Below are positions 35,533-57,989 of a stretch of DNA of 64,000 nt, in pieces; position 1 is the stretch's first letter, and each line of letters starts with the position of its first letter. This stretch comes from an uncultured Maribacter sp. (GTDB lineage: Bacteria; Bacteroidota; Bacteroidia; Flavobacteriales; Flavobacteriaceae). Under the pieces are notes generated by a model. That model was not told the origin of the DNA and made no database searches. It saw only the letters and a list, made by a program, of their open reading frames with translations. Both the position numbers and the translations under genes were made by a program. The DNA is taken from assembly GCF_963977385.1 (NCBI RefSeq), contig NZ_CAXBOU010000008.1, positions 108,619 to 172,618 on the forward strand, read 5' to 3'.

Positions 35533-35571
35533 TTATTTAATGCAAAATTAAGGCGGTAAAACAGGCTGCAC

Positions 35572-35587
35572 AGTAACTAATGTTACC
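35572..35587 (-). promoter_or_regulatory. CRP/FNR-type box upstream of the TolC-MFP-RND operon
   Basis: Gene-oriented GGTAACATTAGTTACT. After 21 nt comes a perfect -7 box TAATTTTG (35543..35550, minus strand). The box ends 40 nt upstream of the ATG. Confidence 0.7.
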
Positions 35588-35627
35588 TAAGGAAATTTCT
35601 TTCTTAAAAAACATCTGTTTAAAAAAG

Positions 35628-35658
35628 AAAAGGCACTCTTTTATAAAGAGTGCCTTTT
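35628..35658 (-). terminator. rho-independent terminator after the SQR/small-ORF unit
   Basis: Perfect palindrome aaaaggcactcttta/taaagagtgcctttt, followed on the minus strand by a T-run (tttctttttt). Confidence 0.85.
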
Positions 35659-35689
35659 ACAATCAACCGAAAAACAAAAGAAAAATTAG

Positions 35690-35782
35690 TTTACTCGAAA
35701 ATCGAGATTTAAATGCTCCGATGCTTGCGTCGAAATCAAAATGTTCTTTCTTATGAATGCCTCTTGGGTTTACCCCGAGGTT
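35690..35782 (-). repeat. structured intergenic repeat, copy 3 (full length)
   Basis: tttactcgaaaatcgagatttaaatgctccgatgcttgcgtcgaaatcaaaatg...gaatgcctcttgggtttaccccgaggtt. Its reverse complement aligns end to end with copy 1. Its right end supplies the last codons and the TAA of ORF 35770..35979. Confidence 0.8.
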
Positions 35783-35979
35783 ATTTTCTTTTTAGGAGAT
35801 TTTATAAATAAACTGAATAATAGTCCACCCATAAAACCGCCATATAATGTACTGGTCAAAGGTTTAGAAGTTATGGCACAAGTACCACTCAAACAACCAA
35901 TTTCTGTGTAGTATATATACCCTGCTATAGCGTCAATTACCACACCGATTGTGGTTAGTATAATTACTTTTTTTGTCAT
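35770..35979 (-). CDS. small membrane protein (two TM, CxxGxC motif)
   Basis: 69 aa. Contains the motif GCLSGTCA between hydrophobic helices. Start overlaps the stop of the 46-aa ORF upstream (TAATG). Confidence 0.55.
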   Translation of the reverse strand: MTKKVIILTTIGVVIDAIAGYIYYTEIGCLSGTCAITSKPLTSTLYGGFMGGLLFSLFIKSPKKKITSG

Positions 35980-36119
35980 TAGTTATTGGCTTTTCTTGTG
36001 CCCCCGTGACCGCCAGCCACAATGAGCATTATTTTAATACTCAGCCAAATGAACTTAAAAAATTGAATTATTGGGTTCATCATATAAAAGCGTTTCGATT
36101 TCGATATTCTCTGTGTCAT
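35979..36119 (-). CDS. unannotated 46-aa small membrane protein (below ORF-track cutoff)
   Basis: My translation is MTQRISKSKRFYMMNPIIQFFKFIWLSIKIMLIVAGGHGGTRKANN. One hydrophobic helix and a GGHGG tail. Coupled by TAATG to the next ORF and located 55 nt after the SQR-like gene. Confidence 0.35.
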   Translation of the reverse strand: MTQRISKSKRFYMMNPIIQFFKFIWLSIKIMLIVAGGHGGTRKANN

Positions 36120-36174
36120 TTCTTTTGGTTTTTAAGTTTTATTAATTCAAGTTTTAAAAGATTGTATCTCAAAA

Positions 36175-37629
36175 CTATTCAGGAATTAGCCACCAAAAAG
36201 GTTTCATTTTCGCCTTATAAATAAAGGCATAGTGTAGGGCTAATTTTAACCAATGACCAGCTAAACCGATTTCACCAAAAGTCTTGTCTAACTGTCTACC
36301 TTGTGTATCGGGATATTTATGATAATCAGGTACAATAGGATAGGTGGTAATACTAACGCCACTACCTTTTGTCATTCCATAACCCGCAGATGCAATACAT
36401 GCTGCCCCCATGTTACCCATAGAACCCTTATGGTGCAATTCTTTTTTCCCGTTAATGATATCAATAATATTGTCTGCCACTAACTTCGCTGTAATACCAG
36501 AAGGCATTCCTGTTCTTGGCGGAGCAGGGGATATGAGTGTACCATTTTTACTTACCCTAGGTTTAGAAATAGCATGCGGTGGAGCAAACGCAATACCTGG
36601 GGCGAATATATTTTTATACGACGGATTTTGGTAGATTTCAGGCCAATCTTGTACACTCCATTCTTCATATGGTTTAGGCGTATAATCGGCATCGACCAAC
36701 ATAAATCCTTTGAAGAGTTTTTCTGTGATATCTTCGTTATTTTTATTAAAAGCTTTAAAACCATGCCCTGAGAAAGCAGGTATTAGCATGGCAAAATCAT
36801 ATGTTTCAGAATTGTATTCACCATCTAGCGTTTCATAATGCGCTACACCATCTTCTATTTTGTTTACCCCTGCACCAATAATCCATTTTATACCACGGTC
36901 TTCAAAGACCATTTCGACCATTTCGCTAGATTTCATTATGTTGTTGCCGTAACTGAGCAGCATACCGTCCATACCAAAATCACCTAATTGATGCTCATTG
37001 GCAATCCATACAACTTCAGCTTTGTCACGTACATTATGTCGCCTTAGTTCTTGTTCAACATTTAAAATATATTCGAAAGCTGCACCTTGACACGTAGATT
37101 TTGCATGGCCAGTGCCAATTAGTATTTTCACTTTTTTGCCTTGTTTCATTTCCTGAATCAAGTCATTCAAAGCATGCCACGCATGTTCGGCATGTGTATA
37201 TGTACAAACAGAATATGCTTTGTTAGTACCTGGGTTTAGGCCTTCGGTCATATCAAAGGCTAGTTTAGGGCCTGTAGCATTTATTAAATAATCGTAGGTT
37301 ACTTTTTCGGTTTGTCCTTTTTTCTCATCGTTTACATATTCGATTTTAACAAAAGGCTGTGTAGTATCGGTATCACCTTCTGGGTGAAACGTAGTTACTT
37401 TTGCTTGTTTATAACCGATGCTTTTTTTCTTGTATAAAGGAGCCAAAGGAAATAGGATCTCTTTAGACTTCATTCTACCAATACCAACCCAAATGTTTGA
37501 GGGTATCCATTGGTAATTACTATTTGGCGAAACAACCAAAACTTCATGTTCTTTCGATAATTTTCGACGTAGATGAGCTGCTGCGACGTGACCGGAAATT
37601 CCTGCACCTAATATGACTATTTTTGACAT
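36175..37629 (-). CDS. FAD-dependent sulfide:quinone oxidoreductase-like protein (long form, C-terminal amphipathic tail)
   Basis: 484 aa. Rossmann motif ILGAGISGH, cysteine motifs KSTCQGAAFEY and GAACIASAG in the positions used by SQR-family enzymes, and a hydrophobic C-terminus. Confidence 0.7.
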   Translation of the reverse strand: MSKIVILGAGISGHVAAAHLRRKLSKEHEVLVVSPNSNYQWIPSNIWVGIGRMKSKEILFPLAPLYKKKSIGYKQAKVTTFHPEGDTDTTQPFVKIEYVNDEKKGQTEKVTYDYLINATGPKLAFDMTEGLNPGTNKAYSVCTYTHAEHAWHALNDLIQEMKQGKKVKILIGTGHAKSTCQGAAFEYILNVEQELRRHNVRDKAEVVWIANEHQLGDFGMDGMLLSYGNNIMKSSEMVEMVFEDRGIKWIIGAGVNKIEDGVAHYETLDGEYNSETYDFAMLIPAFSGHGFKAFNKNNEDITEKLFKGFMLVDADYTPKPYEEWSVQDWPEIYQNPSYKNIFAPGIAFAPPHAISKPRVSKNGTLISPAPPRTGMPSGITAKLVADNIIDIINGKKELHHKGSMGNMGAACIASAGYGMTKGSGVSITTYPIVPDYHKYPDTQGRQLDKTFGEIGLAGHWLKLALHYAFIYKAKMKPFWWLIPE

Positions 37630-37681
37630 TTCTACAAGCTTTTAAGTTTATACTAAGGTCACTTTAATCTTGAAGCTATAC

Positions 37682-37697
37682 AGTAACCTTTGTTACA
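37682..37697 (-). promoter_or_regulatory. CRP/FNR-type box upstream of the SQR-like gene
   Basis: Gene-oriented TGTAACAAAGGTTACT, ending 53 nt upstream of the ATG. This site has no recognisable TAnnTTTG at the 20-21 nt spacing. Confidence 0.55.
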
Positions 37698-37787: not shown

Positions 37788-37803
37788 ATTGATTAATATC
37801 ATA
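37788..37803 (+). promoter_or_regulatory. FNR-consensus-like box (TTGAT-N4-ATCAT) upstream of a small ORF
   Basis: ATTGATTAATATCATA, then 21 nt to a perfect -7 box TAATTTTG (37825..37832). Same geometry as the TGTAAC boxes but with different half-sites. Confidence 0.4.
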
Positions 37804-37858
37804 TTTAGATATTAACGGGATACTTAATTTTGAGGATACTATTTAAAATAGCTTAGAG

Positions 37859-37978
37859 ATGAGAGGCAGTTCAAATACATTGATTTATGTCATTGCCGGT
37901 ATTATTATTCTCCATTTTGTTGTCGGCTTTATTTGGCTGATCTATAAATTAAATAAGAAAAAAGAGAAGATAGATTAA
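37859..37978 (+). CDS. possible 39-aa small membrane protein
   Basis: MRGSSNTLIYVIAGIIILHFVVGFIWLIYKLNKKKEKID. One TM helix and a basic tail, 26 nt downstream of a consensus -7 box. No homology evidence. Confidence 0.25.
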   Translation: MRGSSNTLIYVIAGIIILHFVVGFIWLIYKLNKKKEKID

Positions 37979-38360: not shown

Positions 38361-39434
38361 CTAATGGCCATAATCCATATGATCTACTTTTCCTTTCATT
38401 AATCTTTTTTGAATAATCATATAAATGAAGAGGAGTATGAAACCAATAATTCCCCAATAAAGTGCTACTGATAAACTATAATCAGAAGCAGCTGTATTGT
38501 ATATTGTTAATGGTTCATGTGTATCATTAACAGAAGGCAATATCACAGGAAATAAAGATGCTAATGATGATGTAATTCCCCCAACTATTAATAAGGTTGA
38601 CAAGACAAAAGCATTGCTGTCTTTTTTGATTTTTTTAATAAAAAATAACCCAATTAAGCCTGTTAAATAAATAACTGGAAAAACAATAAGATAAGGTTTA
38701 AGAATAAAATTATCTAAAGAATTTGGATTCACTATTTGCCATACAAATAAAGAAAAGACCGTTAGAATCGTTAACGCAATGTTTAACTTAAAGATTACAC
38801 TTTTAAGCTTGTTGTTTATTGACGAATTAGTTTTTAGAATTACCCAATTAGCACCATGAATAGCTAATGTTACAACAGATATTAACCCAATAATAATTGT
38901 AAACCAATCTATGACACCAGGATGTTCAGATAAAGGACTAAAACTACTATTCCATAAGGGTAGGAAAAAATAATGTCCTTCATGTACAGATATGCCATTA
39001 TCAACACCACCTAAATTTACACCTCTTACAATATTGCCTAATGCGATACCGAAAAATAAGGCTAGTAATAAACTAGAAACTCCGAAAGATTTGTCCCAGA
39101 TATCTTTCCACATTTGGAATTTAAATTGCCCCCTTAATTCTAACCCAATAGCGCGGAAAATTATTAACCATAAAACTAGTATCAATGGTAAATAGAAACC
39201 ACTAAAAACCGAAGCATAGAATGTTGGGAATGCCATAAAAAGCATCCCACCGGCAGCGACTAACCAAACTTCATTAGAATCCCAAAATAGACCAGCAGAT
39301 TTTGCAATGACTTCTTTATCTTTTTCCTTTTTAGCAAAGAACAAATGAATAATTCCTGTTCCAAAATCATAACCATCCAAAATAAAAAATACAGCTAAAA
39401 CAGTGGCTATTAAAATGTACCAAAATATTTCCAT
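38361..39434 (-). CDS. cydB: cytochrome bd ubiquinol oxidase subunit II
   Basis: 357 aa. N-terminus WYILIATVLAVFFILDGYDFGTGI is typical of CydB. Lies 2 nt after cydA. Confidence 0.9.
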   Translation of the reverse strand: MEIFWYILIATVLAVFFILDGYDFGTGIIHLFFAKKEKDKEVIAKSAGLFWDSNEVWLVAAGGMLFMAFPTFYASVFSGFYLPLILVLWLIIFRAIGLELRGQFKFQMWKDIWDKSFGVSSLLLALFFGIALGNIVRGVNLGGVDNGISVHEGHYFFLPLWNSSFSPLSEHPGVIDWFTIIIGLISVVTLAIHGANWVILKTNSSINNKLKSVIFKLNIALTILTVFSLFVWQIVNPNSLDNFILKPYLIVFPVIYLTGLIGLFFIKKIKKDSNAFVLSTLLIVGGITSSLASLFPVILPSVNDTHEPLTIYNTAASDYSLSVALYWGIIGFILLFIYMIIQKRLMKGKVDHMDYGH

Positions 39435-39436: not shown

Positions 39437-40768
39437 TTAATGTGTTTTAGGTTTTGGCCCTTCGTTAATGGTTTTGCCTACTAAGATTAAGAATAAAAGT
39501 CCCAATAGCATATATAAAGCGACAAAACCAAGTAAGGTAAATAAGGTGTTGCCAGATGAAACTGTTGGGGAAATACCATCGCTAGTTCTTAGTAAACCAT
39601 ATACTAAATACGGTTGTCTACCTAACTCCGCCGTGTACCATCCGGTAAGGTTTGCTATATAAGGGAACGGAACTAAAAACATAATGATCCAAAGTAATGC
39701 TTTTGCCGTGTACAGTTTTTTACGCCATAATAGAAATGCTGCTAATGCCATTATAGCCATAAAAATTGTGCCTAAACCAACCATTATATGATACGAATAA
39801 TACAGTGCAGGAATGTTATCGGGCAATTCTTCTTTTTCGAATTTATCCATACCAACGATTTGCTTATCCCATTCTTGATAGGTTAAAAAACTTAATATGT
39901 TCGGAACGGCAATTTTGTTATCTAGTTTTTTCTCAACCATATTAGGTTGCCCAATAAGTACAATTTCTGCACCAGCGTCTTCGGTCTCAAAAATACCTTC
40001 CATAGCGGCAAAAGCTGCTGGCTGGTATTTTGCGACATTTTTCGCATTCCAATCTCCAGTAGGGAAGGCCACCAAAATACTGGAAACCAAACCGAAAATA
40101 ACTCCGGTTTTTAAAAACAGTTTTCCGTGTTCAGTCTGTTTATTTCTAAGCAGGTAAAAGGCCCCTATACTAGCGACCACGAAAGAAGAGGTGACTACAG
40201 AAGCTAATTGATTATGTAAAAAAGCGGGTAGAAGCCAAGGATTACTAAACAGTGCAGAAAAATTTTGTAAAACGAATTTTCCATTTTCCAAAATTTCATA
40301 CCCTACTGGGTGTTGCATCCAAGCATTGGTTGCTAAAATAAACCAACCACTAGCCCAAGATCCTAGAAATACTAGAAAGCCAGTTAAGAGGTGTAATTTT
40401 TGTCCCATTAACTTTTCGCCAAAAATAAATAGTGCCAAGAAAGAGGATTCTAAGAAGAAAGAAAACATGCCTTCCATGGCTAAGGTCTGCCCAATAATAC
40501 CACCTGTTAGTTCAGAGAATTTTGCCCAATTAGTGCCAAATTGAAATTCCATAGGAATTCCTGTTACGACGCCCATGGTAAAATTGATGGCAAAAATTTT
40601 CATAAAAAATTTAGCAGCATCGTTATATTTTTCAATCTTATTTCTAAGGTATTTCCATTTAAAGTAGACTATCAATAATGACAATCCCATGGTTAATTGA
40701 GGAAATATATAGTGGAATGTGATAGTAAATGCAAATTGCAGTCTATCGTAAAAAATCATGTCTTCCAT
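39437..40768 (-). CDS. cydA: cytochrome bd ubiquinol oxidase subunit I
   Basis: 443 aa. Has RLQFAFTITFHYIFP, the Q-loop region and the GWYTAELGRQPY motif. Confidence 0.92.
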   Translation of the reverse strand: MEDMIFYDRLQFAFTITFHYIFPQLTMGLSLLIVYFKWKYLRNKIEKYNDAAKFFMKIFAINFTMGVVTGIPMEFQFGTNWAKFSELTGGIIGQTLAMEGMFSFFLESSFLALFIFGEKLMGQKLHLLTGFLVFLGSWASGWFILATNAWMQHPVGYEILENGKFVLQNFSALFSNPWLLPAFLHNQLASVVTSSFVVASIGAFYLLRNKQTEHGKLFLKTGVIFGLVSSILVAFPTGDWNAKNVAKYQPAAFAAMEGIFETEDAGAEIVLIGQPNMVEKKLDNKIAVPNILSFLTYQEWDKQIVGMDKFEKEELPDNIPALYYSYHIMVGLGTIFMAIMALAAFLLWRKKLYTAKALLWIIMFLVPFPYIANLTGWYTAELGRQPYLVYGLLRTSDGISPTVSSGNTLFTLLGFVALYMLLGLLFLILVGKTINEGPKPKTH

Positions 40769-40829
40769 AATCTATATTCTTTACAGCTTTTAGGATGGTT
40801 ACAAAAGTAGACAACAGATGATTTTTAAA

Positions 40830-40845
40830 GGTAACCATTGATACA
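40830..40845 (-). promoter_or_regulatory. CRP/FNR-type box upstream of cydAB
   Basis: Gene-oriented TGTATCAATGGTTACC (one half-site degenerate). After 20 nt comes a perfect -7 box TACTTTTG (40802..40809, minus strand). Confidence 0.55.
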
Positions 40846-41015: not shown

Positions 41016-41495
41016 TTAGTCTTTGTATGCAGATAGCATCCATACTAATTTTTCTTGTTGCACAATATAATCGCTCATTAAAGAAACTGTTCCTTCGTCT
41101 TCAGCCTCGGCAGCAATTTTAAGTGTTGCTCTCTCTTTTTTTAGTAAAATAGTCAAGCTTGCTAAAATATTATCTACAGCTATATCTCCGTCAACAACAT
41201 TTTCGATAGGCTTAATTTCTGAGTTTTCAATATACGTTGCGAAGGTATGAATAGGGGTAAAGCTCAAGGTTAGTACACGTTCAGCAATTTCATCAACCTT
41301 AATTAAAGCGTCATTGTATAATTCCTCGAACTTAAGGTGAAGCTCAAAAAACTTTCTTCCTTTAATATTCCAATGAAAACCTCTAAGGTTCATATAGAAC
41401 ATTTGATAATTCGATAGTACATCATTTAAGTGATTAGCGATATCATTTGAACTTTTTTTATCTAATCCGATATTTGATAGTTCTGTATTCGTCAT
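41016..41495 (-). CDS. dps: Dps family DNA-protection/ferritin-like protein
   Basis: 159 aa. Contains LNDVLSNYQMFYMNLRGFHWNIKG..F..LH..FEE, which carries the ferroxidase-centre residues. Confidence 0.9.
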   Translation of the reverse strand: MTNTELSNIGLDKKSSNDIANHLNDVLSNYQMFYMNLRGFHWNIKGRKFFELHLKFEELYNDALIKVDEIAERVLTLSFTPIHTFATYIENSEIKPIENVVDGDIAVDNILASLTILLKKERATLKIAAEAEDEGTVSLMSDYIVQQEKLVWMLSAYKD

Positions 41496-41590
41496 GGTAT
41501 TTAGGTTTAAAGAATTTTTATAATTATTAATAGATAAAAATTATAGATAAATTAATTTTCGATAAAGATAATCTATAATAAAAAAGGGAA

Positions 41591-41606
41591 GGGTAACTTA
41601 GGTTAC
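41591..41606 (-). promoter_or_regulatory. CRP/FNR-type box upstream of dps
   Basis: Gene-oriented TGTAACCTAAGTTACC. After 20 nt comes the -7-like TATCTTTA (41563..41570, minus strand). Confidence 0.65.
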
Positions 41607-41710
41607 ATAAATCTTTTTTTAACTTTTTTTAACAATAAAAATGGAGGTGTTAAGACAATGATTAAGTTCATCGTTCTGCGATAATGAGTTTATCTTAATT
41701 ATTCTGTTTA

Positions 41711-41726
41711 TGTGACCAAAGTCACA
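41711..41726 (+). promoter_or_regulatory. CRP/FNR-type box upstream of 41760 / TonB-dependent receptor unit
   Basis: TGTGACCAAAGTCACA, a perfect CRP-like TGTGA-N6-TCACA. After 21 nt comes a perfect -7 box TAATTTTG (41748..41755), only 4 nt before the ATG at 41760. Confidence 0.7.
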
Positions 41727-41759
41727 TTTTGAACCAATTGTGGTCATTAATTTTGCCGC

Positions 41760-45108: not shown

Positions 45109-45219
45109 GAGTTTGTAGAATTTTAAATTAGTGTAGTTTGGTTATAAATATATGATGATAGCTACTAATGTCCGTTATTTTTTAAAGTAATAAAAGTAAG
45201 TAGGGTTATTTAACGCTAC

Positions 45220-45235
45220 TGTAACTCATGTTACT
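45220..45235. promoter_or_regulatory. single CRP/FNR-type box shared by divergent promoters (dsrE-like / dihaem cytochrome)
   Basis: TGTAACTCATGTTACT. There are 21 nt to TAGATTGG (45257..45264, plus strand) and 21 nt to TACTTTTA (45191..45198, minus strand). Confidence 0.65.
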
Positions 45236-45311
45236 GTCATTATTAAATTGAATTTCTAGATTGGTTGACTAAATTAGTATCACAATAATTTTATAAGCTC
45301 GTTGCACAGGT

Positions 45312-49053: not shown

Positions 49054-49107
49054 TTTATAACTATTTTTTAGAATTTAATAAATATAATAGTTATCAATTT
49101 CTAATTA

Positions 49108-49123
49108 TGTAACAAGAGTTACA
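49108..49123 (-). promoter_or_regulatory. CRP/FNR-type box upstream of the interrupted type II SQR
   Basis: Perfect palindrome arms TGTAACAAGAGTTACA. After 21 nt comes the -7-like TATATTTA (49079..49086, minus strand). Confidence 0.7.
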
Positions 49124-49412: not shown

Positions 49413-49542
49413 GACACTAATTTTTATTTTATGTGTTAAACCGCAAACTGTAATGATGTGTAGGTTATATAGACAAACAGAGTAGCACTATAGTTTTATG
49501 TTAAAGATATACTGCAAAGTAATATTAACCTATCAGCTTAAG

Positions 49543-49558
49543 TATGACATTTGTCATA
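49543..49558 (-). promoter_or_regulatory. CRP/FNR-type box variant (TATGAC-N4-GTCATA)
   Basis: Perfect palindrome arms TATGACATTTGTCATA. After 21 nt comes a weak -7-like TACTTTGC on the minus strand. Lies 131 nt upstream of the DUF2892 ATG. Confidence 0.4.
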
Positions 49559-49588: not shown

Positions 49589-49604
49589 TGTAACAAGAGT
49601 TACA
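49589..49604 (+). promoter_or_regulatory. CRP/FNR-type box upstream of the fatty-acid-hydroxylase-family gene
   Basis: TGTAACAAGAGTTACA, a 16-mer identical to 49108..49123. After 21 nt comes TATATTTA (49626..49633). Confidence 0.7.
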
Positions 49605-49650
49605 GAATTGCTGTTTATTAAAAAGTATATTTACCAAAATCGTAATACGA

Positions 49651-51580: not shown

Positions 51581-51925
51581 TTAATTCCAAGAACTATAAC
51601 CGCCTTTTAAATCATATACTTCAAGAAAGCCCATGTTTAATAACTTACGTGCTGCTTTTTGACTTCTGGCTCCTGATCTGCAATAAACATATACCGCCTT
51701 ATTTTTATCTAACTTTTCAAAGAAATTTTTAAAATTGTTAGGGTTAAAAAAATCAATATTAATAGCATTTTTAATATGGCCGCTATTAAATTCAGATGCC
51801 GTTCTAACATCAATAGGTTTTATCTTGTTTGTAATAATGGCCGTTGCATACTCATTCTTTTTCAAAATAGTAATCTGGCCTAAAGTTTCTTTTTTCTTGC
51901 CAAAAATGGCGTCTAAAAATGACAT
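51581..51925 (-). CDS. single-domain rhodanese (sulfurtransferase)
   Basis: 114 aa with active-site loop CRSGARS and the motif DVRTASEFNSGHI. Confidence 0.85.
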   Translation of the reverse strand: MSFLDAIFGKKKETLGQITILKKNEYATAIITNKIKPIDVRTASEFNSGHIKNAINIDFFNPNNFKNFFEKLDKNKAVYVYCRSGARSQKAARKLLNMGFLEVYDLKGGYSSWN

Positions 51926-52013: not shown

Positions 52014-52676
52014 TTAATTAAGACTTTTCTTAGCTAGATACCAATCAACTTTTTCTAGGGTATCATCTGCAATTCGAGCATTTAGTTCATCTAAAGTTTT
52101 AGGTGGAGAAACAATTACCTTGTCTCCCTTTTTCCAATCTAATGGCATCGCTACTTTATATTTGTCAGAAGTTTGTAAGGCTTCTAAAGCTCTTAAAATC
52201 TCATTCATATTACGACCTACATTTAAAGGGTAATACATAATTAGACGTATTTTTTTCTTAGGATCAATAAAGAATACTGCCCGTACAGCTGCAGTTTCAC
52301 TTTCATTAGGCTGTAACATTCCGTATTTCTTGGAGACTTTCATATCTATATCTGCTATGATAGGAAAATCGAAATATACCCCTGTATTCTGGCGAACATT
52401 TTGAACCCATCCTAAATGAGCATGAACACTATCTATACTTAGACCAAGAAGTTCTGTGTTAAGTACATCAAATTCTGGTTTACGTACTGCAAAGCCACTC
52501 ATTTCAGTAGTACAAACAGGTGTGAAATCTGCAGGATGCGAGAACATAACTATCCATTTGTTTTTAGCAAAATCTGATAATTTAATTTTTCCTTTTGTAG
52601 TAACAGCCTCAAAATCTGGAGCGATATCTCCAATTCTTGGCATACTGTTCACTTCAATATTATTTATAGTTTCCAT
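52014..52676 (-). CDS. peroxiredoxin (1-Cys/Prx6-like)
   Basis: 220 aa. Contains FSHPADFTPVCTTE with the peroxidatic Cys. The C-terminal extension is typical of the Prx6 subfamily. Confidence 0.9.
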   Translation of the reverse strand: METINNIEVNSMPRIGDIAPDFEAVTTKGKIKLSDFAKNKWIVMFSHPADFTPVCTTEMSGFAVRKPEFDVLNTELLGLSIDSVHAHLGWVQNVRQNTGVYFDFPIIADIDMKVSKKYGMLQPNESETAAVRAVFFIDPKKKIRLIMYYPLNVGRNMNEILRALEALQTSDKYKVAMPLDWKKGDKVIVSPPKTLDELNARIADDTLEKVDWYLAKKSLN

Positions 52677-52722
52677 GTTGTATTAATTTTAATTAAAGGT
52701 ATAACTACACCATAATTACTAC

Positions 52723-52738
52723 AGTAACTCTTGTTACA
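52723..52738 (-). promoter_or_regulatory. CRP/FNR-type box upstream of the prx-rhodanese-DUF3365-HMA unit
   Basis: Gene-oriented TGTAACAAGAGTTACT. After 21 nt comes TACCTTTA (52694..52701, minus strand). Confidence 0.7.
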
Positions 52739-52865: not shown

Positions 52866-54275
52866 TTATAATGTAGTAGGACAAATAAACTCAGATACTT
52901 GAATACCAGTTTCTTGTATAGCCTTAAAGCCGTCTTTTACATCAATGAGGTTATGTATACCTCTGCTTTTTAAAATGGAGGAAGCAATCATACTTCTATA
53001 ACCACCGGCACAGTGTACATAAAATATCTTATTTTCAGGAAATTCTGCTAAGTGGTCATTTAGAAAATCTAATGGTGTATTTACAGCTTCTAAAATATGC
53101 TCAGATAGATATTCAGATTCTTTACGTACATCGAACACAGGGGCTTTTTCACTTTCAATAATTTTTTTAAGCTCACTTGCATCGACTTGACTAACGGTAT
53201 CATATTCCATTGCAGCTTTTTTCCATGCCTCAAAACCTCCATCTAAATACCCTAAGGTACCATCGAAACCAACTCTAGAAAGTCGGGTTACTGCTTCCTC
53301 TTCTAATCCTACTGGCGCAACTAATAAAATGGGTTGTTTTACATCAGCGATCAAGGCTCCTACCCAAGGTGCAAAACTACCGTCTAGACCAATAAATATA
53401 GAACGTGGTATATGACCTTTAGCAAAATCATCTTGATGGCGCACATCTAATACAATGGCTCCCGTCTCATTTGCCGCAGCTTCAAAAGCCTTTGGGGAAA
53501 GCGCTCTTGTACCACGCTCCAATACTGTTTTGATATCTTCATAACCCTCTTTGTTCATTTTTACATTTAATGGAAAATACTGGGGCGGTGGAAGTAGACC
53601 ATCAATTACCTCTTCTATGAATTCTTCTTTGGTCATGTCTTTACGTAATGCGTAATTCACTTTCTTTTGGTTACCCAAGGTATCGACAGTTTCTTTCATC
53701 ATATTCTTGCCACAAGCAGAACCAGCACCATGTGCCGGATATACAATTACATCATCTGCTAACGGTATTATTTTTTCACGTAAGCTATCGTATAAATATC
53801 CTGCGAGGTCGCGCTCGGTTAATTCTCCCATTTTTTGGGCTAAATCTGGTCTTCCCACATCTCCAAGAAATAAGGTGTCTCCACTAAAAATAGCGTAGTC
53901 TATACCGTTGGAGTCTTTTAAAAGATAAGTGGTACTCTCCATAGTATGACCTGGGGTATGTAATGCAATAATGGTTACATCGCCCAATTTAAATTCCTGA
54001 TTATCTTTTGCTATAATAGCTTCGAAAGAAGGATTTGCTTTTGGCCCGTAAATAATATCTGCTCCAGTTTCTTTTGCTAAGGTTACATGGCCACTGACAA
54101 AATCGGCATGAAAATGAGTTTCAAAAATATATTTGATTTTTGCATTATCAGATTTCGCTTTATTTATGTAAGGTAACACCTCTCGTAAGGGATCAATTAT
54201 TGCAACCTCTCCATTACTTTCAATGTAATAAGCACCTTGAGCAAGACAGCCAGTATATATTTGTTCAACCTTCAT
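52866..54275 (-). CDS. persulfide dioxygenase (MBL fold) fused to two rhodanese domains (CstB/ETHE1-Rhd-like)
   Basis: 469 aa. Metallo-beta-lactamase motif THFHADFVSGH, HTPGHT, a middle inactive rhodanese and a C-terminal active rhodanese loop HCAGGYRS. Confidence 0.85.
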   Translation of the reverse strand: MKVEQIYTGCLAQGAYYIESNGEVAIIDPLREVLPYINKAKSDNAKIKYIFETHFHADFVSGHVTLAKETGADIIYGPKANPSFEAIIAKDNQEFKLGDVTIIALHTPGHTMESTTYLLKDSNGIDYAIFSGDTLFLGDVGRPDLAQKMGELTERDLAGYLYDSLREKIIPLADDVIVYPAHGAGSACGKNMMKETVDTLGNQKKVNYALRKDMTKEEFIEEVIDGLLPPPQYFPLNVKMNKEGYEDIKTVLERGTRALSPKAFEAAANETGAIVLDVRHQDDFAKGHIPRSIFIGLDGSFAPWVGALIADVKQPILLVAPVGLEEEAVTRLSRVGFDGTLGYLDGGFEAWKKAAMEYDTVSQVDASELKKIIESEKAPVFDVRKESEYLSEHILEAVNTPLDFLNDHLAEFPENKIFYVHCAGGYRSMIASSILKSRGIHNLIDVKDGFKAIQETGIQVSEFICPTTL

Positions 54276-54326
54276 AAGTTCACTTTTAAAATTATGTACA
54301 AAATTAAACCTTGAGATAGTATTGTA

Positions 54327-54342
54327 CAGTAACTTAGGTTAC
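54327..54342 (-). promoter_or_regulatory. CRP/FNR-type box upstream of PDO-rhodanese gene 1
   Basis: Gene-oriented TGTAACCTAAGTTACT. After 20 nt comes TTAATTTG (54299..54306, minus strand; one mismatch to TAnnTTTG). Confidence 0.65.
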
Positions 54343-54356
54343 ACTCGTTACTAGTT

Positions 54357-55821: not shown

Positions 55822-55876
55822 GGCGTAATAATTTTTGATTAATACTATAAAATTACTTCTTGTAAGTGTCTTGTAC

Positions 55877-55892
55877 AGTGACATTAGTCACA
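55877..55892 (-). promoter_or_regulatory. CRP/FNR-type box upstream of PDO-rhodanese gene 2
   Basis: Gene-oriented TGTGACTAATGTCACT. After 21 nt comes TAATTTTA (55848..55855, minus strand). Confidence 0.7.
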
Positions 55893-55903
55893 TAAGAAAA
55901 GAA

Positions 55904-56704
55904 TTATTTAAAAAATTCCATATAGAAAATAAAGATGGCCATAACCAGTATAAAATAGCCGAATCCTTTTTTAAGTTTTTTGCCATCAATAAAATTGCTG
56001 AGGTAACTTCCAATAAAAATTCCGATAAAAGAAAGGCCTGTGAATAGAGCTAAAAAATTCCAATCAATTTCCATAGTCATGGCATCTCCTAGAAAAAACC
56101 CCATTAAAGATTTTATGGCGATTATAATTAATGATGTACCCACGGCAACTTTCATTTCAACATTTGCCAATATAACCAATGCGGGGATGATTAAGAATCC
56201 GCCACCAGCACCAATCATGCCTGTGATACCACCAACGATTAATCCTTCTAATAAAATCAACGGATAGTTATAAGCAACATCGCCACTTTTAACTGTAATC
56301 TTCTCTTTCTTGAGCATAGAATACGCTGCAGGAAACATCAATACAGCAAACAGGCCGAACATGGCCATTCTACGTGTAAATTGAAATGCTTCAACTTGAA
56401 ATAAAATATCGGGCATTGCAGGTACTACATAATGTCTGACTACTGTTACGCCTATAATAGCAGGAATGCCAAAAACTAATGCCGTTCGCCAATCTACAAA
56501 TCCTTTAAGGTGCTGTTTCCAACCGCCTACCAATGCACTTGCGCCAACGATAAATAGAGAATATGCAGTTGCGACTTTCTCGTTTATGGAAAAAAGATAA
56601 GCTAGAACGGGTACTGCCAAAATTGAACCTCCACCACCGATAAGACCCAATGAGATACCTATAATTAAGGCGCTTATATATCCAAAAACATGTAACATTT
56701 CCAT
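55904..56704 (-). CDS. TauE/SafE family sulfite/anion exporter
   Basis: 266 aa with about 8 TM helices. Duplicated GGGGS/GAGGGF motifs (GLIGGGGSILAVP, GMIGAGGGFLIIP). Confidence 0.85.
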   Translation of the reverse strand: MEMLHVFGYISALIIGISLGLIGGGGSILAVPVLAYLFSINEKVATAYSLFIVGASALVGGWKQHLKGFVDWRTALVFGIPAIIGVTVVRHYVVPAMPDILFQVEAFQFTRRMAMFGLFAVLMFPAAYSMLKKEKITVKSGDVAYNYPLILLEGLIVGGITGMIGAGGGFLIIPALVILANVEMKVAVGTSLIIIAIKSLMGFFLGDAMTMEIDWNFLALFTGLSFIGIFIGSYLSNFIDGKKLKKGFGYFILVMAIFIFYMEFFK

Positions 56705-56750
56705 AAAGGTATTTTATACCTCAAAAGTAAAGTGGTATGAAAATGTGTGC

Positions 56751-56766
56751 AGTAACAATAGTTACA
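56751..56766 (-). promoter_or_regulatory. CRP/FNR-type box upstream of tauE-like gene
   Basis: Gene-oriented TGTAACTATTGTTACT. After 21 nt comes a perfect TACTTTTG (56722..56729, minus strand). Lies 6 nt after the regulator's stop codon. Confidence 0.7.
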
Positions 56767-56772
56767 GAAGTA

Positions 56773-57405
56773 CTATAAATCTAAAATTTTAATGTAATTA
56801 CGATGAAGTTTTATTTTACCCATCTCCTCTAATTTTTTTAATAATCTGGAAATCACTACTCTAGAGCTATGAAGGTCATAAGCAATCTCTTGGTGGGTAC
56901 TATGAATAATATCATCGTTTGTTACCCTAGCTTTTTCTTTTAAGTAGCCAATTAAACGTTCGTCCATTTTTTGAAAAGCAATACTGTCTAACGTGCTCAA
57001 CAATTCATTTAGACGAACATGGTAACTACTGAAAACAAAATTCCGCCAAGATTTATATTTAATGGTCCATTCCTCCATCTTTTGAATAGGAACCATTATT
57101 AGCTTGGCATCAGTTTCTGCAACGGCTCTTATTTCACTTTTAGTATCGCCCATACAACACGCCATAGTCATTGAACACGTATCACCTTTCTCTAAATAAT
57201 ACAATAGAAGTTCGTCGCCATCTTCATCCTCTCTAAGAATTTTAATAACGCCAGATATTAATAATGGCATTCCTCTAAGGTAATCACCAATTTCTATTAA
57301 TTTATAACCTTCGGGAACCTCTTTAAAGGTACCTACTTGAACAATTTCATTAATTAGTTCCTCTTCAAAAATATTCCCGTATTGCTCTTTTAAGTCTTGG
57401 ATCAT
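56773..57405 (-). CDS. Crp/Fnr family transcriptional regulator
   Basis: 210 aa with a cNMP-binding-like beta-roll and a C-terminal HTH (HQEIAYDLHSSRVVISRLLKKL). No FNR-type N-terminal Cys cluster, but C-x5-CC (GDTCSMTMACCMGD) lies inside the beta-roll. Confidence 0.9.
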   Translation of the reverse strand: MIQDLKEQYGNIFEEELINEIVQVGTFKEVPEGYKLIEIGDYLRGMPLLISGVIKILREDEDGDELLLYYLEKGDTCSMTMACCMGDTKSEIRAVAETDAKLIMVPIQKMEEWTIKYKSWRNFVFSSYHVRLNELLSTLDSIAFQKMDERLIGYLKEKARVTNDDIIHSTHQEIAYDLHSSRVVISRLLKKLEEMGKIKLHRNYIKILDL

Positions 57406-57412
57406 TCTTTTT

Positions 57413-57802
57413 TTAATTAACTTCTTGTGCTATTTTCTTATCAAATTTAAAAAATATATTTGCCCAAATCGATTTGGAAACTGCCGCTATCCAAGGCATG
57501 GCAAGTATTAAGCTAATGACGATTATAGCAAACAATGACGAAACCTTAAATTACAAGCCGTAAATCAATATCAAAACATTAGTGGCCAACGCAACAGCAA
57601 TACCTACGCCATAAGAAACATACATTCATCCACTATAAAAACTAGGTTTTAAACTGGAGATTAAATCGCATTTAGGGCATCGTTCTTTAATCTTGTTGAA
57701 ATTACTTAATTTATAAGGATTTGCCTTTAGGAATTCTCCTTTAAGACACTTTGGGCATTTCAAAAATATGATACAGTACAATTTGGAAGCTTTTGCTAAC
57801 AT
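57413..57802 (-). pseudogene. DUF983-like small membrane zinc-ribbon protein gene with two in-frame stops
   Basis: A single frame reads MLAKASKLYCIIFLKCPKCLKGEFLKANPYKLSNFNKIKERCPKCDLISSLKPSFYSG*MYVSYGVGIAVALATNVLILIYGL*FKVSSLFAIIVISLILAMPWIAAVSKSIWANIFFKFDKKIAQEVN. The TGA is at 57626..57628 and the TAA at 57551..57553. The CPxC...CPxC plus two-TM layout is as I recall for DUF983. Confidence 0.65.
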
Positions 57803-57849
57803 GACTTAAAAATTTGGAAACAAATTTATTATATCAACTCTTTTTAAAA

Positions 57850-57865
57850 GGTAATCATAGTTGCA
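57850..57865 (-). promoter_or_regulatory. degenerate CRP/FNR-type box upstream of the DUF983-like/crp unit (possible autoregulation)
   Basis: Gene-oriented TGCAACTATGATTACC (2 mismatches). After 21 nt comes a perfect TAAATTTG (57821..57828, minus strand). Confidence 0.4.
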
Positions 57866-57926
57866 TAACACCACCCGATTGTATCCAATTTATAAAGGAA
57901 ATTTAAAACTAATCATAAAACCATGA

Positions 57927-57942
57927 ACTGACATTGGTCATA
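57927..57942 (+). promoter_or_regulatory. CRP/FNR-type box upstream of hemN
   Basis: ACTGACATTGGTCATA. After 21 nt comes a perfect TAAGTTTG (57964..57971). The ATG is at 57990. Confidence 0.65.
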
Positions 57943-57989
57943 TTATTTACTGTTTTTGGCGTGTAAGTTTGTTATTAAATCAAAAGTTT

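What the first reader, a model, noticed from the sequence alone, without database searches (positions are those of the whole stretch)
35543..57971. 16-bp CRP/FNR-type palindrome at fixed class-II distance from -7 boxes defines a regulon of about 15 promoters
- **Motif.** Almost every intergenic region between 35.5 and 58 kb contains the same inverted repeat. The gene-oriented consensus is TGTAAC-N4-GTTAC(T/A), equivalent to TGTAA-N6-TTACA. Variants are TGTGAC..GTCACA, TATGAC..GTCATA and ACTGAC..GTCATA.
- **Sites.** 35572, 37682, 40830, 41591, 41711, 45220, 49108, 49543, 49589, 52723, 54327, 55877, 56751, 57850 (degenerate) and 57927.
- **Spacing to the -7 box.** In 14 of the 15 sites a Bacteroidetes-type -7 element (TAnnTTTG) starts 21 nt after the palindrome; in 3 of those it is 20 nt. 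The -7 element is perfect at TolC, cydA, 41760, tauE, hemN and the crp unit, and differs from consensus by one or two bases (or a one-base shorter spacer) elsewhere. Only the 37682 site lacks a recognisable -7 box.
- **Geometry.** This places the dyad about 41-42 bp upstream of the expected transcription start, which is the class II CRP/FNR activation geometry.
- **Identical sites.** Three sites (49108, 49589, 52723) share the same 15-16-mer including the spacer. So do 41591 and 54327.
- **Half-sites.** They match the CRP consensus TGTGA-N6-TCACA with A tolerated at position 4.
- **Candidate regulator.** A Crp/Fnr gene (56773..57405) sits inside the cluster.
Basis: partly seen in the sequence, partly recalled or inferred. 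Interest (0 to 1): 0.88.

Follow-up and report, generated by a model that had tools for sequence, protein, structure and literature searches.

The report
Sulfide-oxidation regulon with fixed-geometry CRP-type promoters
A marine flavobacterium (Maribacter) drives about 14 promoters for sulfide-detoxifying genes with one palindromic DNA box set exactly 21 bases ahead of the promoter, probably through the neighbouring CRP/FNR-family activator; the layout is conserved across the family and points to an undescribed type of sulfide-responsive regulator.

Summary
GTAAC-N4-GTTAC occurs 9 times exactly against 0.06 expected, and all 9 copies are intergenic. A TAnnTTTG -7 box follows at 20-21 nt in 15 of 16 oriented sites, against a 3% null.

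The architecture is conserved. In 80 Flavobacteriaceae loci around orthologues of the Crp/Fnr gene I found 274 sites against about 10 in shuffles. Perfect -7 boxes sit at offset 21 in 134 cases and almost nowhere else.

The conserved targets are a sulfide-oxidation module: SQR, CstB-like dioxygenase-rhodanese fusions, rhodaneses, TauE, YeeE and sulfite oxidase. Cytochrome bd, a TolC/RND pump, Prx and the regulator's own operon are also targets.

- The box equals the published HcpR2 consensus (Rodionov 2005), so the motif is not new.
- Sites 49543 and 57927 (hemN) belong to a second, FNR-like box class, (A/C)TGAY-N4-RTCA(T/G). It uses the same spacing but never forms hybrid sites with the first class. 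Its regulon looks like a hypoxia response (hemN, Usp, FixS, HPF). Two more such sites were missed (7637, 37788).

The signal is inferred, not shown. It is most likely sulfide or persulfide, sensed through conserved cysteines in the degenerate cNMP pocket. This is a new variant of a known kind.

The parts
56773..57405 (-). Candidate regulator: a 210-aa Crp/Fnr-family protein. Cysteines C77, C83 and C84 sit in the degenerate cNMP pocket. The recognition helix reads S-R182-V183-V-I-S-R187.
   Evidence: Pfam cNMP_binding plus HTH_Crp_2. AF2 model pLDDT 93.4. CRP fold with TM about 0.8. CRP alignment. Orthologues in at least 597 species genomes.
35543..35587 (-). Class-1 promoter: box GGTAACATTAGTTACT, then 21 nt, then TAATTTTG. 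It drives TolC (34219-35532), the membrane-fusion protein (33104-34186) and the RND pump (29747-32980).
   Evidence: TolC is a recurrent target: 5-6 flavobacterial loci and 14 metagenome promoters.
37653..37697 (-). Class-1 box TGTAACAAAGGTTACT upstream of SQR-484 (36175-37629) and DUF6132 (35770-35979). The -7 box is poor (GACCTTAG, 4 of 6).
   Evidence: SQR identity.
40802..40845 (-). Class-1 promoter: TGTATCAATGGTTACC, then 20 nt, then TACTTTTG. It drives cydA (39437-40768), cydB (38361-39434) and orf99.
   Evidence: cydA orthologues carry sites in 7 of 12 loci.
41563..41607 (-). Class-1 promoter: TGTAACCTAAGTTACC, then 21 nt, then TATCTTTA. It drives dps (41016-41495).
41711..41755 (+). 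Class-1 promoter (GTGAC variant): TGTGACCAAAGTCACA, then 21 nt, then TAATTTTG. It drives orf125 (41760-42137) and a TonB-dependent receptor (42222-44519). The box ends only 4 nt before the ATG, so the mRNA may be leaderless or the start codon lies further downstream.
45191..45264 (.). Bidirectional class-1 site 45220-45235, with a -7 box 21 nt away on each side. TACTTTTA serves the DsrE-like gene (44581-45108, minus strand). TAGATTGG serves the TsdA/SoxA-like cytochrome c (45312-46349) and the OprD-like porin (46355-47692).
   Evidence: The same divergent pair shares one site in L004 and L005.
49079..49123 (-). Class-1 promoter: TGTAACTCTTGTTACA, then 21 nt, then TATATTTA. It drives the second SQR (47743-49053), which is interrupted by an in-frame TAA at 48019-48021.
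   Evidence: SQR orthologues carry sites in 17 of 19 loci.
49589..49633 (+). Class-1 promoter: TGTAACAAGAGTTACA, then 21 nt, then TATATTTA. It drives a fatty-acid hydroxylase family protein (49651-50526).
   Evidence: The gene is a target in 9 loci.
52694..52738 (-). Class-1 promoter: TGTAACAAGAGTTACT, then 21 nt, then TACCTTTA. It drives peroxiredoxin (52014-52676), rhodanese (51581-51925), a Tll0287-like protein (50840-51478) and an HMA protein (50564-50833).
   Evidence: Each of these genes has its own site in other genomes.
54299..54343 (-). Class-1 promoter: TGTAACCTAAGTTACT, then 21 nt, then TAATTTTG. It drives a CstB-like MBL-rhodanese persulfide dioxygenase (52866-54275).
   Evidence: This is the commonest target family in relatives.
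55848..55892 (-). Class-1 promoter (GTGAC variant): TGTGACTAATGTCACT, then 21 nt, then TAATTTTA. It drives the second MBL-rhodanese gene. The true start is the ATG at 55821 (MKVEQIY...), not the longest-ORF start at 55884.
   Evidence: The GTGAC variant is conserved at this promoter in L001, L002 and L008.
56722..56766 (-). Class-1 promoter: TGTAACTATTGTTACT, then 21 nt, then TACTTTTG. It drives the TauE/SafE sulfite exporter (55904-56704).
   Evidence: TauE is a target in 29 loci.
57821..57865 (-). Degenerate class-1 box TGCAACTATGATTACC, then 21 nt, then a perfect TAAATTTG. It drives a DUF983 pseudogene (57413-57802, with in-frame TGA and TAA) and then crp. This is the autoregulatory promoter.
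   Evidence: Relatives have a strong box before an intact DUF983-crp operon (13 loci) or directly before crp (15 loci).
57927..57971 (+). Class-2 (FNR-like) promoter: ACTGACATTGGTCATA, then 21 nt, then TAAGTTTG. It drives hemN (true start ATG 57990, ends 59351) and Usp (59404-60225).
49515..49558 (-). Class-2-type box TATGACAAATGTCATA, then 20 nt, then TTACTTTG. It lies upstream of the YgaP-like TM protein (49206-49412).
37788..37832 (+). It drives a 39-aa membrane-protein ORF (37859-37978).
7608..7652 (-). It drives a PNPOx-like protein (7121-7582).

Best explanation
**What it is.** The (T)GTAAC/GTGAC-N4-GTTAC/GTCAC boxes are binding sites for a dimer of the Crp/Fnr-family protein encoded at 56773-57405.

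**How it works.** Each box sits exactly two helical turns (21 nt) upstream of a Bacteroidetes TAnnTTTG -7 element. It occupies the place of the -33 element. The bound dimer is therefore positioned like a class II CRP/FNR activator (dyad about -41.5 to -45) and recruits RNA polymerase.

**What it controls.** The regulon is a sulfide-oxidation and sulfide-tolerance programme.
- Sulfide oxidation: two SQRs, two CstB-like persulfide dioxygenase-rhodanese fusions, a rhodanese, a DsrE-like protein, and a TsdA/SoxA-like cytochrome c with a porin.
- Export: the TauE sulfite exporter and a TolC-RND pump.
- Sulfide-insensitive respiration: cytochrome bd.
- Stress proteins: Dps and peroxiredoxin.
- Others: a fatty-acid hydroxylase and a TonB-dependent receptor.
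- The regulator's own operon, giving positive autoregulation.

**Signal (inferred).** The most likely signal is sulfide or sulfane sulfur. It would be sensed through the conserved cysteines (C77 plus C83/C84) that replace the phosphate-binding cassette of the cNMP pocket. The chemistry could be persulfidation or polysulfide bridging, or a cysteine-bound cofactor.

**Second regulon.** A different CRP/FNR-type regulator, not encoded in the window, uses FNR-like (A/C)TGAY-N4-RTCA(T/G) boxes with the same spacing. It controls hemN-usp and other hypoxia or stress genes.

**Shown versus inferred.** Shown: motif excess, spacing, cross-genus conservation, target identity, the protein's fold and residues. 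Inferred: binding by this protein, activation, and the nature of the signal.
For: **Excess and position**
- Exact core: 9 against 0.06 expected, all intergenic.
- A -7 box at 20 or 21 nt in 15 of 16 oriented sites, against a 3% null.

**Conservation**
- 80 loci from many Flavobacteriaceae genera carry 274 sites, against about 10 in shuffles. 78 of 80 loci have at least one.
- 250 of 274 sites have the box. Perfect boxes sit at offset 21 in 134 cases, against 3 at all other offsets from 10 to 31.
- The logo of 254 promoters has near-zero information in the 20-nt linker. These are therefore independent promoters under constraint, not copies of one another.

**Targets**
- First genes downstream in the 80 loci: MBL-rhodanese 67, TauE 29, rhodanese 18, SQR 17, crp or DUF983-crp 28, YeeE/YedE 12, Prx 11, SulP 7, cydA 6, sulfite-oxidase-like 5, TolC 5.
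- An unbiased metagenome scan of the composite pattern recovers the same families.

**Enzyme identities**
- The MBL-rhodanese proteins match 3tp9, 3r2u (which I recall to be S. aureus CstB) and ETHE1. SQR-484 matches solved SQR structures.

**Regulator**
- CRP fold.
- C77 is at least 90% conserved over 42 diverse family members. C83 and C84 are invariant among closer ones.
- The cysteines map to CRP I70, F76 and E77 in the phosphate-binding cassette helix.
- Val183 replaces CRP Glu181.
- Even 32-38%-identical family members sit next to rhodanese and YgaP-like genes.

**Analogy and induction**
- The S. aureus cst operon (tauE, cstA, cstB, sqr) is sulfide-induced under CstR (PMC5480029).
- Bacteroidota sqr and pdo transcripts rise after NaHS addition in sediment (PMC12345210).
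Against: - There are no transcription-start, binding or expression data.
- Activation is inferred from geometry only.
- cydAB, Dps and Prx would equally suit an oxygen or redox signal.
- The same DNA box and geometry drive hcp in other Bacteroidota. The box therefore does not by itself indicate sulfide.
- C83 and C84 are not conserved in distant family members.
- Paralogues with the same SRVVISR helix exist, for example P0146 in L206. Assigning boxes to proteins is therefore not proven.
- In this window the autoregulatory box is degenerate, and two regulon genes carry in-frame stops. The system may be decaying in this strain.
Confidence: 0.6

Rival explanations
1. The DNA sites and regulator are the same, but the signal is oxygen limitation or general redox state. 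The regulator would be an FNR-like switch, for example a Cys-ligated Fe-S cluster or a thiol-disulfide switch as in Flp or CprK. Sulfide genes would be induced because sulfide accompanies anoxia.
For: The regulon includes cydAB, Dps, Prx and, in other genomes, thioredoxin. Three clustered cysteines could bind a cluster. Some database names call orthologues 'anaerobic regulatory protein'.
Against: A separate FNR-like box class already covers the classic hypoxia genes in the same genomes: hemN, Usp, FixS/CcoS and HPF. The conserved core of the GTAAC regulon is sulfur-specific: SQR, PDO-rhodanese, TauE, YeeE and sulfite oxidase. The protein has no FNR-type N-terminal Cys motif.
Confidence: 0.25
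2. The protein is a repressor. The box overlaps the -33 region and blocks sigma binding until an inducer releases it, as with CstR, SqrR or BigR.
For: All well-studied dedicated sulfide or persulfide sensors except FisR are repressors (PMC13467558). The box covers the expected -33 position.
Against: Simple occlusion does not require single-base phasing, yet offset 21 occurs in 134 perfect cases against about 0 elsewhere. One site serves two divergent promoters symmetrically. CRP/FNR proteins at this position are classically activators (family knowledge).
Confidence: 0.1
3. It is an orthologue of the NO- or nitrite-responsive HcpR2, and the regulon is a nitrosative-stress response.
For: The DNA consensus is identical to HcpR2, GTAACnnnnGTTAC (PMC1274295). 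hcp promoters in other Bacteroidota contigs have the identical composite architecture. Cytochrome bd is also NO-tolerant (general knowledge).
Against: No hcp gene is in the window or among the first genes after the sites with a -7 box in the 80 loci. HcpR2 has Pro at the CRP-181 position, whereas this protein has Val. No homologue of this regulator was found in the flanks of the hcp contigs.
Confidence: 0.04
4. The palindromes are not transcription-factor sites. They would be repeated elements, RNA hairpins or chance.
For: None beyond their being short inverted repeats.
Against: The statistics. They are exclusively intergenic and lie upstream of the -7 box, so they are not transcribed. They are conserved at orthologous promoters across genera with variable spacers and linkers.
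Confidence: 0.01

Closest known systems
HcpR2 regulon (CRP/FNR family; Rodionov et al. 2005, PMC1274295)
   Same: The DNA consensus GTAACnnnnGTTAC is identical. Both are CRP/FNR-family regulators, and both occur in Bacteroidetes among other groups. hcp promoters in metagenomic Bacteroidota contigs show the same box-N22-TAnnTTTG layout.
   Different: HcpR2 regulons contain essentially hcp, and the proteins carry Pro at the CRP-181 position. Here the regulon has about 14 promoters of sulfur-oxidation and tolerance genes, contains no hcp, and has Val at that position.
E. coli CRP and FNR class II activation
   Same: A homodimeric CRP fold. A 5-N-5 palindrome overlapping the upstream promoter element. 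Rigid helical phasing, with the dyad about 41.5 nt from the presumed start.
   Different: The partner promoter is the Bacteroidetes sigma-A type (-7 TAnnTTTG), not -10/-35. The cAMP-binding residues are replaced: E72 by Met, with cysteines in the cassette. There is no FNR N-terminal Cys cluster. Transcription starts are not mapped.
CstR/cst operon of Staphylococcus aureus, and SqrR/BigR or FisR systems
   Same: The regulated module is the same: SQR, CstB-type persulfide dioxygenase-rhodanese, sulfurtransferases and TauE. The regulator has conserved cysteines, as the dithiol sensors do.
   Different: The regulator fold is unrelated (CRP/FNR against CsoR, ArsR or Fis). It is probably an activator, not a repressor. 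The regulon is much larger and includes cytochrome bd, an RND pump, Dps and Prx. Sensing chemistry has not been tested.
Thiol-switch members of the CRP/FNR family (Flp of Lactobacillus casei, CprK); from my own knowledge
   Same: They set a precedent for cysteine-based redox control within this fold.
   Different: Their cysteines lie at other positions (N-terminus or the DNA-binding domain), and their regulons are unrelated.
CRP-like motif upstream of psrABC and cydAB in Chlorobaculum tepidum (bioRxiv 10.1101/172254)
   Same: It is in the FCB group, with a Bacteroidetes-like RpoD promoter. A CRP-like motif is linked to sulfide-dependent expression and to cydAB.
   Different: The motif differs, having no spacer. 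Its positions differ (about -57 and further upstream). The work is in a preprint, and a CRP/FNR gene was found only in C. tepidum.

Membership tests
CRP/FNR superfamily transcription factor | N-terminal cNMP-binding-type beta-roll, a long dimerisation helix and a C-terminal Crp-type helix-turn-helix | tested here: met
   Pfam PF00027, PF13545 and PF00325. AF2 pLDDT 93.4 with helix 118-144 and HTH 171-194. Foldseek TM 0.78-0.81 to CRP, GlxR and 3dv8.
CRP/FNR superfamily transcription factor | Palindromic 5-bp half-sites separated by 4 bp (14-bp core, 16-bp site) | tested here: met
Class II CRP/FNR-dependent promoter | Site centred near -41.5 relative to the transcription start, overlapping the upstream promoter element | tested here: inconclusive
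   The dyad lies a fixed 29.5 nt upstream of the first base of TAnnTTTG. An A-rich stretch at 50-54 suggests a start that would put the dyad at -41.5 to -45. No transcription starts are available.
Class II CRP/FNR-dependent promoter | Dependence on the activator; weak or absent upstream (-33/-35) element | tested here: inconclusive
   Only 'tG' is conserved next to the proximal half-site. A comparison with ordinary promoters showed no -33 signal at all, so the test was uninformative.
HcpR2 (Rodionov 2005) | Recognition motif GTAACnnnnGTTAC | tested here: met
HcpR2 (Rodionov 2005) | Co-occurrence with and regulation of hcp (hybrid cluster protein) | tested here: not met
   No hcp is in the window or among the first genes after the sites with a -7 box in 80 flavobacterial loci. 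hcp appears only in unrelated metagenome contigs.
HcpR2 (Rodionov 2005) | Pro at the position of CRP Glu181 | tested here: not met
   Val183 aligns with Glu181. The Pro statement comes from PMC1274295.
FNR (O2-sensing [4Fe-4S]) | N-terminal Cys cluster (E. coli C20, C23, C29) plus C122 | tested here: not met
   The only cysteines are C77, C83 and C84. The FNR residue numbers are from my knowledge.
FNR (O2-sensing [4Fe-4S]) | TTGAT-N4-ATCAA box | tested here: not met
   Class-1 boxes are GTAAC or GTGAC. Only the separate class-2 boxes resemble TGAT-N4-ATCA.
cAMP-CRP | cAMP-contacting residues of the phosphate-binding cassette (G71, E72, R82, S83) | tested here: not met
   E72 is replaced by Met79, R82 by Lys89 and G71 by Ser78. 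S83 is kept as Ser90. NCBIfam CRP equivalog scored 48 bits against a cut-off of 266.
Dedicated sulfide/persulfide (RSS) sensors (CstR, SqrR/BigR, FisR) | Controls SQR, persulfide dioxygenase, sulfurtransferase and TauE genes | tested here: met
   This rests on site prediction, not expression.
Dedicated sulfide/persulfide (RSS) sensors (CstR, SqrR/BigR, FisR) | Belongs to the CsoR, ArsR or Fis fold | tested here: not met
   CRP fold. The list of known classes is from PMC13467558.
Dedicated sulfide/persulfide (RSS) sensors (CstR, SqrR/BigR, FisR) | Conserved cysteine pair that forms di- or polysulfide links on exposure to sulfane sulfur | not testable with these tools
   Conserved cysteines are present. 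Their reactivity needs biochemistry.

The most novel reading that the evidence does not exclude
The flavobacterial Crp/Fnr protein is a direct sulfide or persulfide sensor. It would use the cysteine cluster that replaces the cNMP phosphate-binding cassette. That would make it a structurally new class of RSS-sensing transcription factor: a class II-type activator, beside the CsoR, ArsR and Fis classes. It would govern heterotrophic sulfide oxidation across hundreds of marine Flavobacteriaceae species. It would work in parallel with a second, FNR-like regulator that shares exactly the same promoter geometry.
Probability: 0.35. Interest if true: 0.8.

Novelty: new variant of a known kind. Interest (0 to 1): 0.62.

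Why it matters
- Flavobacteriaceae are major marine and sediment heterotrophs. Heterotrophic SQR/PDO sulfide oxidation is now seen as an important sulfide sink (PMC12345210, PMC5702731).
- How Bacteroidota regulate this pathway is not described in the literature I could search. The known dedicated sensors belong to other folds and are mostly repressors (PMC13467558).
- This finding gives a ready-made, testable regulon. It comprises a precise operator, a single-base-rigid promoter architecture usable as a sulfide- or hypoxia-inducible expression tool in Bacteroidota, a candidate sensor with candidate sensing cysteines, and a list of unexplained members.
- The unexplained members include the RND pump, a fatty-acid hydroxylase, Tll0287-like, DUF983 and YgaP-like proteins, whose roles in sulfide tolerance could be tested.
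- It also shows that two CRP/FNR regulons can share one promoter geometry and stay insulated by half-site identity alone.

Tried and rejected
- **Selenocysteine in SQR-344.** NCBIfam matched a 'selenoprotein subtype' SQR and the ORF continues in frame. The stop is TAA, not TGA, so this is a nonsense mutation or an error.
- **Structured RNAs or tRNAs in the window.** None found.
- **A third enriched 'motif'.** TC[ATG]AT-N4-TA[AGT]GC lies 21 nt before TAnnTTTG. It is the reverse strand of the conserved N-terminal coding sequence of the MBL-rhodanese genes (..QIYTGC..), so it is an artefact of coding conservation.
- **Residual -33 TTG element.** I asked whether the conserved 'tG' after the proximal half-site is such an element. 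The control set of ordinary TAnnTTTG boxes showed no -33 peak, so the test is uninformative.
- **Covariation of the HTH residue with the box.** The Arg-Glu helix goes with GTGAC in L201 and L207. But Arg-Glu paralogues also sit near GTAAC sites in L085 and L094. The result is inconclusive.
- **Regulators next to hcp promoters.** I looked for one to compare with HcpR2. None lay within the retrieved flanks.
- **Identical 16-mers as evidence of duplication.** The count is what the spacer bias predicts, and the flanks are unrelated.
- **Broad alignment for locus retrieval.** Alignment A1 was too diverse, so I used A2.
- **Prior descriptions.** Literature searches for a flavobacterial Crp/Fnr sulfide regulon found none. 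This covers only the held library.

Full report

Yes.
- The core GTAAC-N4-GTTAC occurs 9 times exactly in the 64-kb window, against 0.06 expected from dinucleotide shuffles.
- All nine copies lie between 35.5 and 57 kb. All are in the roughly 11% of the window that is non-coding.
- Sites 49543, 57850 and 57927 score only 10-12, like two coding hits.
- No intergenic region left of 35.5 kb has a site scoring above 6.6.

**2. Spacing to the -7 box**

- I oriented each site toward its gene. In 15 of 16 site-gene pairs, at least 5 of 6 positions match TAnnTTTG at 20 or 21 nt after the 16-mer. Seven matches are perfect. The null for upstream-oriented intergenic positions is about 3%.
- Only SQR-484 (37682) lacks a box.
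- The site at 45220 has a box at +21 on both sides. It therefore serves the divergent DsrE-like and TsdA-like genes.
- The palindrome at 55877 lies inside the longest ORF of the second MBL-rhodanese gene. The real start is the ATG at 55821 (MKVEQIY, as in its paralogue).
- The hemN TTG 'start' at 57969 overlaps its own -7 box. The real start is the ATG at 57990.

**3. Genes**

Annotations come from Pfam, NCBIfam and PDB searches. The region encodes:
- a TolC-MFP-RND pump;
- two SQRs;
- cydAB;
- Dps;
- a small protein plus a TonB-dependent receptor;
- a DsrE-like protein;
- a TsdA/SoxA-like dihaem cytochrome c plus an OprD-like porin;
- a YgaP-like membrane protein;
- a fatty-acid hydroxylase;
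- peroxiredoxin, rhodanese, a Tll0287-like protein and an HMA protein;
- two MBL-rhodanese fusions, homologous to 3tp9, 3r2u (which I recall to be S. aureus CstB) and ETHE1;
- TauE;
- the Crp/Fnr gene;
- hemN and Usp.

This is a sulfide-oxidation and tolerance island.

**4. Conservation**

- The regulator is 98% identical to Maribacter arcticus proteins.
- Back-translated patterns found relatives in at least 597 species genomes. I kept 80 loci from many Flavobacteriaceae genera, at 65-92% identity.
- In those 1.45 Mb the window-derived PWM finds 274 sites at score 14 or above, against 9-11 in shuffles. 78 of 80 loci have at least one site, and 250 of 274 sites have a -7 box at 20 or 21 nt.
- Perfect TAnnTTTG boxes within offsets 10-31 occur 134 times at offset 21 and 3 times elsewhere.
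- The oriented logo of 254 promoters reads T-n-TGTAAC-N4-GTTAC-t-G-N20-TAnnTTTG. The linker carries essentially no information, so these are independent promoters under constraint, not duplicated cassettes.
- The logo is asymmetric. The distal flank is 'T.T' and the proximal flank is 'tG'. An A-rich patch at positions 50-54 fits a transcription start there.
- First genes downstream: MBL-rhodanese 67, TauE 29, rhodanese 18, SQR 17, crp 15 plus DUF983(-crp) 13, YeeE/YedE 12, Prx 11, FA hydroxylase 9, YgaP-like 8, SulP 7, cydA 6, sulfite-oxidase-like 5, TolC 5, Tll0287 5.

**5. Unbiased check in metagenomes**

- I scanned for GTAAC-N4-GTTAC-N22-TAnnTTTG.
- It recovered the same families: TolC 14, MBL-rhodanese 15, TauE 7, rhodanese 4, Prx, Tll0287, HMA, YeeE, cydA, dps, DUF983, SulP and sulfite oxidase.
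- It also recovered 7 hcp genes and 8 ferredoxin-like genes of about 240-300 aa, on contigs with other G+C content.
- The composite architecture is therefore used more widely in Bacteroidota, including for HcpR2-type hcp control.

**6. What is already known**

- GTAACnnnnGTTAC is exactly the HcpR2 consensus of Rodionov et al. 2005. That paper also states that HcpR2 proteins have Pro at the CRP Glu181 position and that their regulons contain essentially hcp (PMC1274295).
- The present protein has Val at that position.
- It has no hcp among the first genes after its sites with a -7 box.
- No relative of it lies next to the hcp promoters I retrieved.
- It shares the HcpR2 DNA box but fails two of the three HcpR2 criteria.
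- From my own knowledge (Ebright et al. 1984), CAP Glu181 changed to Val, Leu or Lys switches preference from G:C to A:T at half-site position 7. That is the TGTGA-to-TGTAA difference seen here.

**7. Two box classes, not one**

- I aligned the hemN upstream region with Maribacter relatives. The conserved element is CTGAYA-N3-RTCAT, again 21 nt before a conserved TA(A/G)nTTTG. It is not a GTAAC box.
- I searched the 80 loci plus the window for [not G][not G]TGAY-N4-RTCA[not C][not C] followed by a -7 box (TAnnTTT then G or A). This gave 46 hits at spacing 21 and none at spacing 17 or 25.
- Targets of this class are hemN, Usp, FixS/CcoS, ribosome-hibernation-factor-like, Hsp20-like and PfkB-like proteins. 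Only FixS was confirmed by a Pfam scan; the last three names are my reading of N-terminal sequences.
- For an unbiased tally I took the 16-mers lying 21 nt upstream of all perfect -7 boxes. Enriched half-sites were GTAAC (256 against 4.3 at control offsets), GTGAC (32 against 2.3), ATGAT (35 against 10), ATGAC (24 against 7) and CTGAT (10 against 2).
- GTAAC and GTGAC pair only with each other (132 sites). ATGAY pairs only with ATGAY (17 sites). There are no hybrids. That is the signature of two different dimeric regulators.
- The window has no second Crp/Fnr gene.
- A candidate class-2 regulator is the paralogue type P0146. In L206 it lies in an HPF-Usp-crp operon preceded by a class-2 box. 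This is only a lead.

**8. The regulator**

- AF2 gives a confident CRP fold (pLDDT 93.4; TM about 0.8 to CRP-cAMP, GlxR and 3dv8).
- The closest solved relative by sequence is the uncharacterised Eubacterium rectale protein 3dv8.
- The alignment with CRP is ungapped through the pocket. GDTCSMTMACCMGDTKS aligns with GDFIGELGLFEEGQERS.
- C77, C83 and C84 therefore replace I70, F76 and E77 of the phosphate-binding cassette, and Met79 replaces the cAMP ligand E72.
- Residues 78-86 are helical in the model.
- C77 is at least 90% conserved over 42 diverse family members (down to 32% identity). C83 and C84 are invariant among the closer ones, and one of the two is usually kept further out.
- Distant members (32-38% identity) still sit beside rhodanese and YgaP-like genes.

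**9. Mechanism and its status**

- Shown: the sites, their phasing, their conservation, their targets, and the protein's fold and residues.
- Inferred:
  - that this protein binds the class-1 boxes (from co-localisation in 78 of 80 loci, autoregulatory sites in 28 loci, and a compatible recognition helix);
  - that it activates (from single-base phasing over two helical turns, the box occupying the -33 position, and symmetric use of one site by divergent promoters);
  - that the signal is sulfide or sulfane sulfur.
- The signal inference rests on three points. The regulon core equals the CstR-controlled, sulfide-induced cst module of S. aureus (PMC5480029). Bacteroidota sqr and pdo transcripts rise after NaHS addition (PMC12345210). 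The cysteines sit in the effector pocket.
- An oxygen or redox signal is the main rival. A separate FNR-like regulon for classic hypoxia genes in the same genomes argues against it, but does not exclude it.

**10. Novelty**

- A 2026 review lists dedicated RSS sensors only in the CsoR, ArsR and Fis families, plus secondary MarR-type and similar sensors (PMC13467558).
- My searches found no description of a flavobacterial Crp/Fnr sulfide regulon. This is limited to the held library.
- The DNA motif and the family are known. The regulon content, the likely signal, the rigid pairing with the Bacteroidetes -7 promoter and the coexistence of two insulated box classes are new.
- I rate it a new variant of a known kind, with interest about 0.6.

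**11. State of this particular genome**

- SQR-344 carries an in-frame TAA where relatives have Gln.
- The DUF983 gene upstream of crp has in-frame TGA and TAA codons, and its operator is degenerate (TGCAAC...GATTAC), while relatives have perfect boxes.
- Either the assembly has errors or this strain is losing parts of the system.

Noticed in passing
window 47743-49053 (-), stop at 48019-48021: The second SQR gene is split by an in-frame TAA, where my recollection of SQR sequences places Gln (..AAIRK*APIVV..). The C-terminal part, with the conserved Cys, continues in frame. This is a nonsense mutation or a sequencing error, not selenocysteine, despite an NCBIfam hit to a selenoprotein-subtype SQR model.
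   Followed up: partly
window 57413-57802 (-): The DUF983-family gene immediately upstream of crp has two in-frame stops (TGA and TAA), where intact homologues in relatives have Ser and Gln. Its class-1 operator (57850) is degenerate. Relatives have an intact 129-aa gene and a perfect box.
   Followed up: yes
window 7608-7652 (-), 37788-37832 (+), 49515-49558 (-), 57927-57971 (+); L001-L080: A second, FNR-like box class, (A/C)TGAY-N4-RTCA(T/G), has the same 21-nt spacing to TAnnTTTG. It controls hemN, Usp, FixS/CcoS, HPF-like, Hsp20-like, PfkB-like and PNPOx-like genes (only FixS and PNPOx-like were confirmed by Pfam scans). Its regulator is not in the window.
   Followed up: partly
L206 4708-6621 (GCA_003688895.1): An HPF-Usp-Crp/Fnr paralogue (P0146, no CC motif) operon is preceded by a class-2 box. 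In the same locus the MBL-rhodanese gene carries a class-2 box rather than a class-1 box. This suggests a candidate class-2 regulator and some cross-wiring between the two regulons.
   Followed up: no
window 27957-28932 (-): Split YeeE/YedE-type sulfur transporter genes have no class-1 site here. Their homologues carry one in 12 of the 80 loci and on 2 metagenome contigs.
   Followed up: partly
L082, L083, L106, L123, L145, L159, L186 and L091, L095, L107, L112, L125, L148, L155, L183: On other Bacteroidota metagenome contigs, hcp genes and ferredoxin-like genes of about 240-300 aa (4Fe-4S type) carry exactly the same GTAAC-N4-GTTAC-N22-TAnnTTTG promoter. A recurrent 78-aa membrane protein with a C-terminal CCG..GC motif is also a target.
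   Followed up: no
window 41748-41762 and 35532-35550: For orf125 the -7 box ends 4 nt before the annotated ATG, and for TolC 10 nt before it. Either the mRNAs are leaderless or the true starts lie downstream (TolC has a second Met at codon 4).
   Followed up: no
L001-L080, reverse strand of the MBL-rhodanese 5' ends: An apparent third motif (TC[ATG]AT-N4-TA[AGT]GC, 21 nt before TAnnTTTG) is the antisense of the conserved coding sequence ..QIYTGC... This is a caution for promoter scans that ignore coding context.
   Followed up: yes
window 318-1469 (-): A PAS-domain histidine kinase lies at the left end of the window. A class-2 target homologue (w1558_1959, unknown function) lies next to it. 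A possible link to oxygen or redox sensing was not examined.
   Followed up: no
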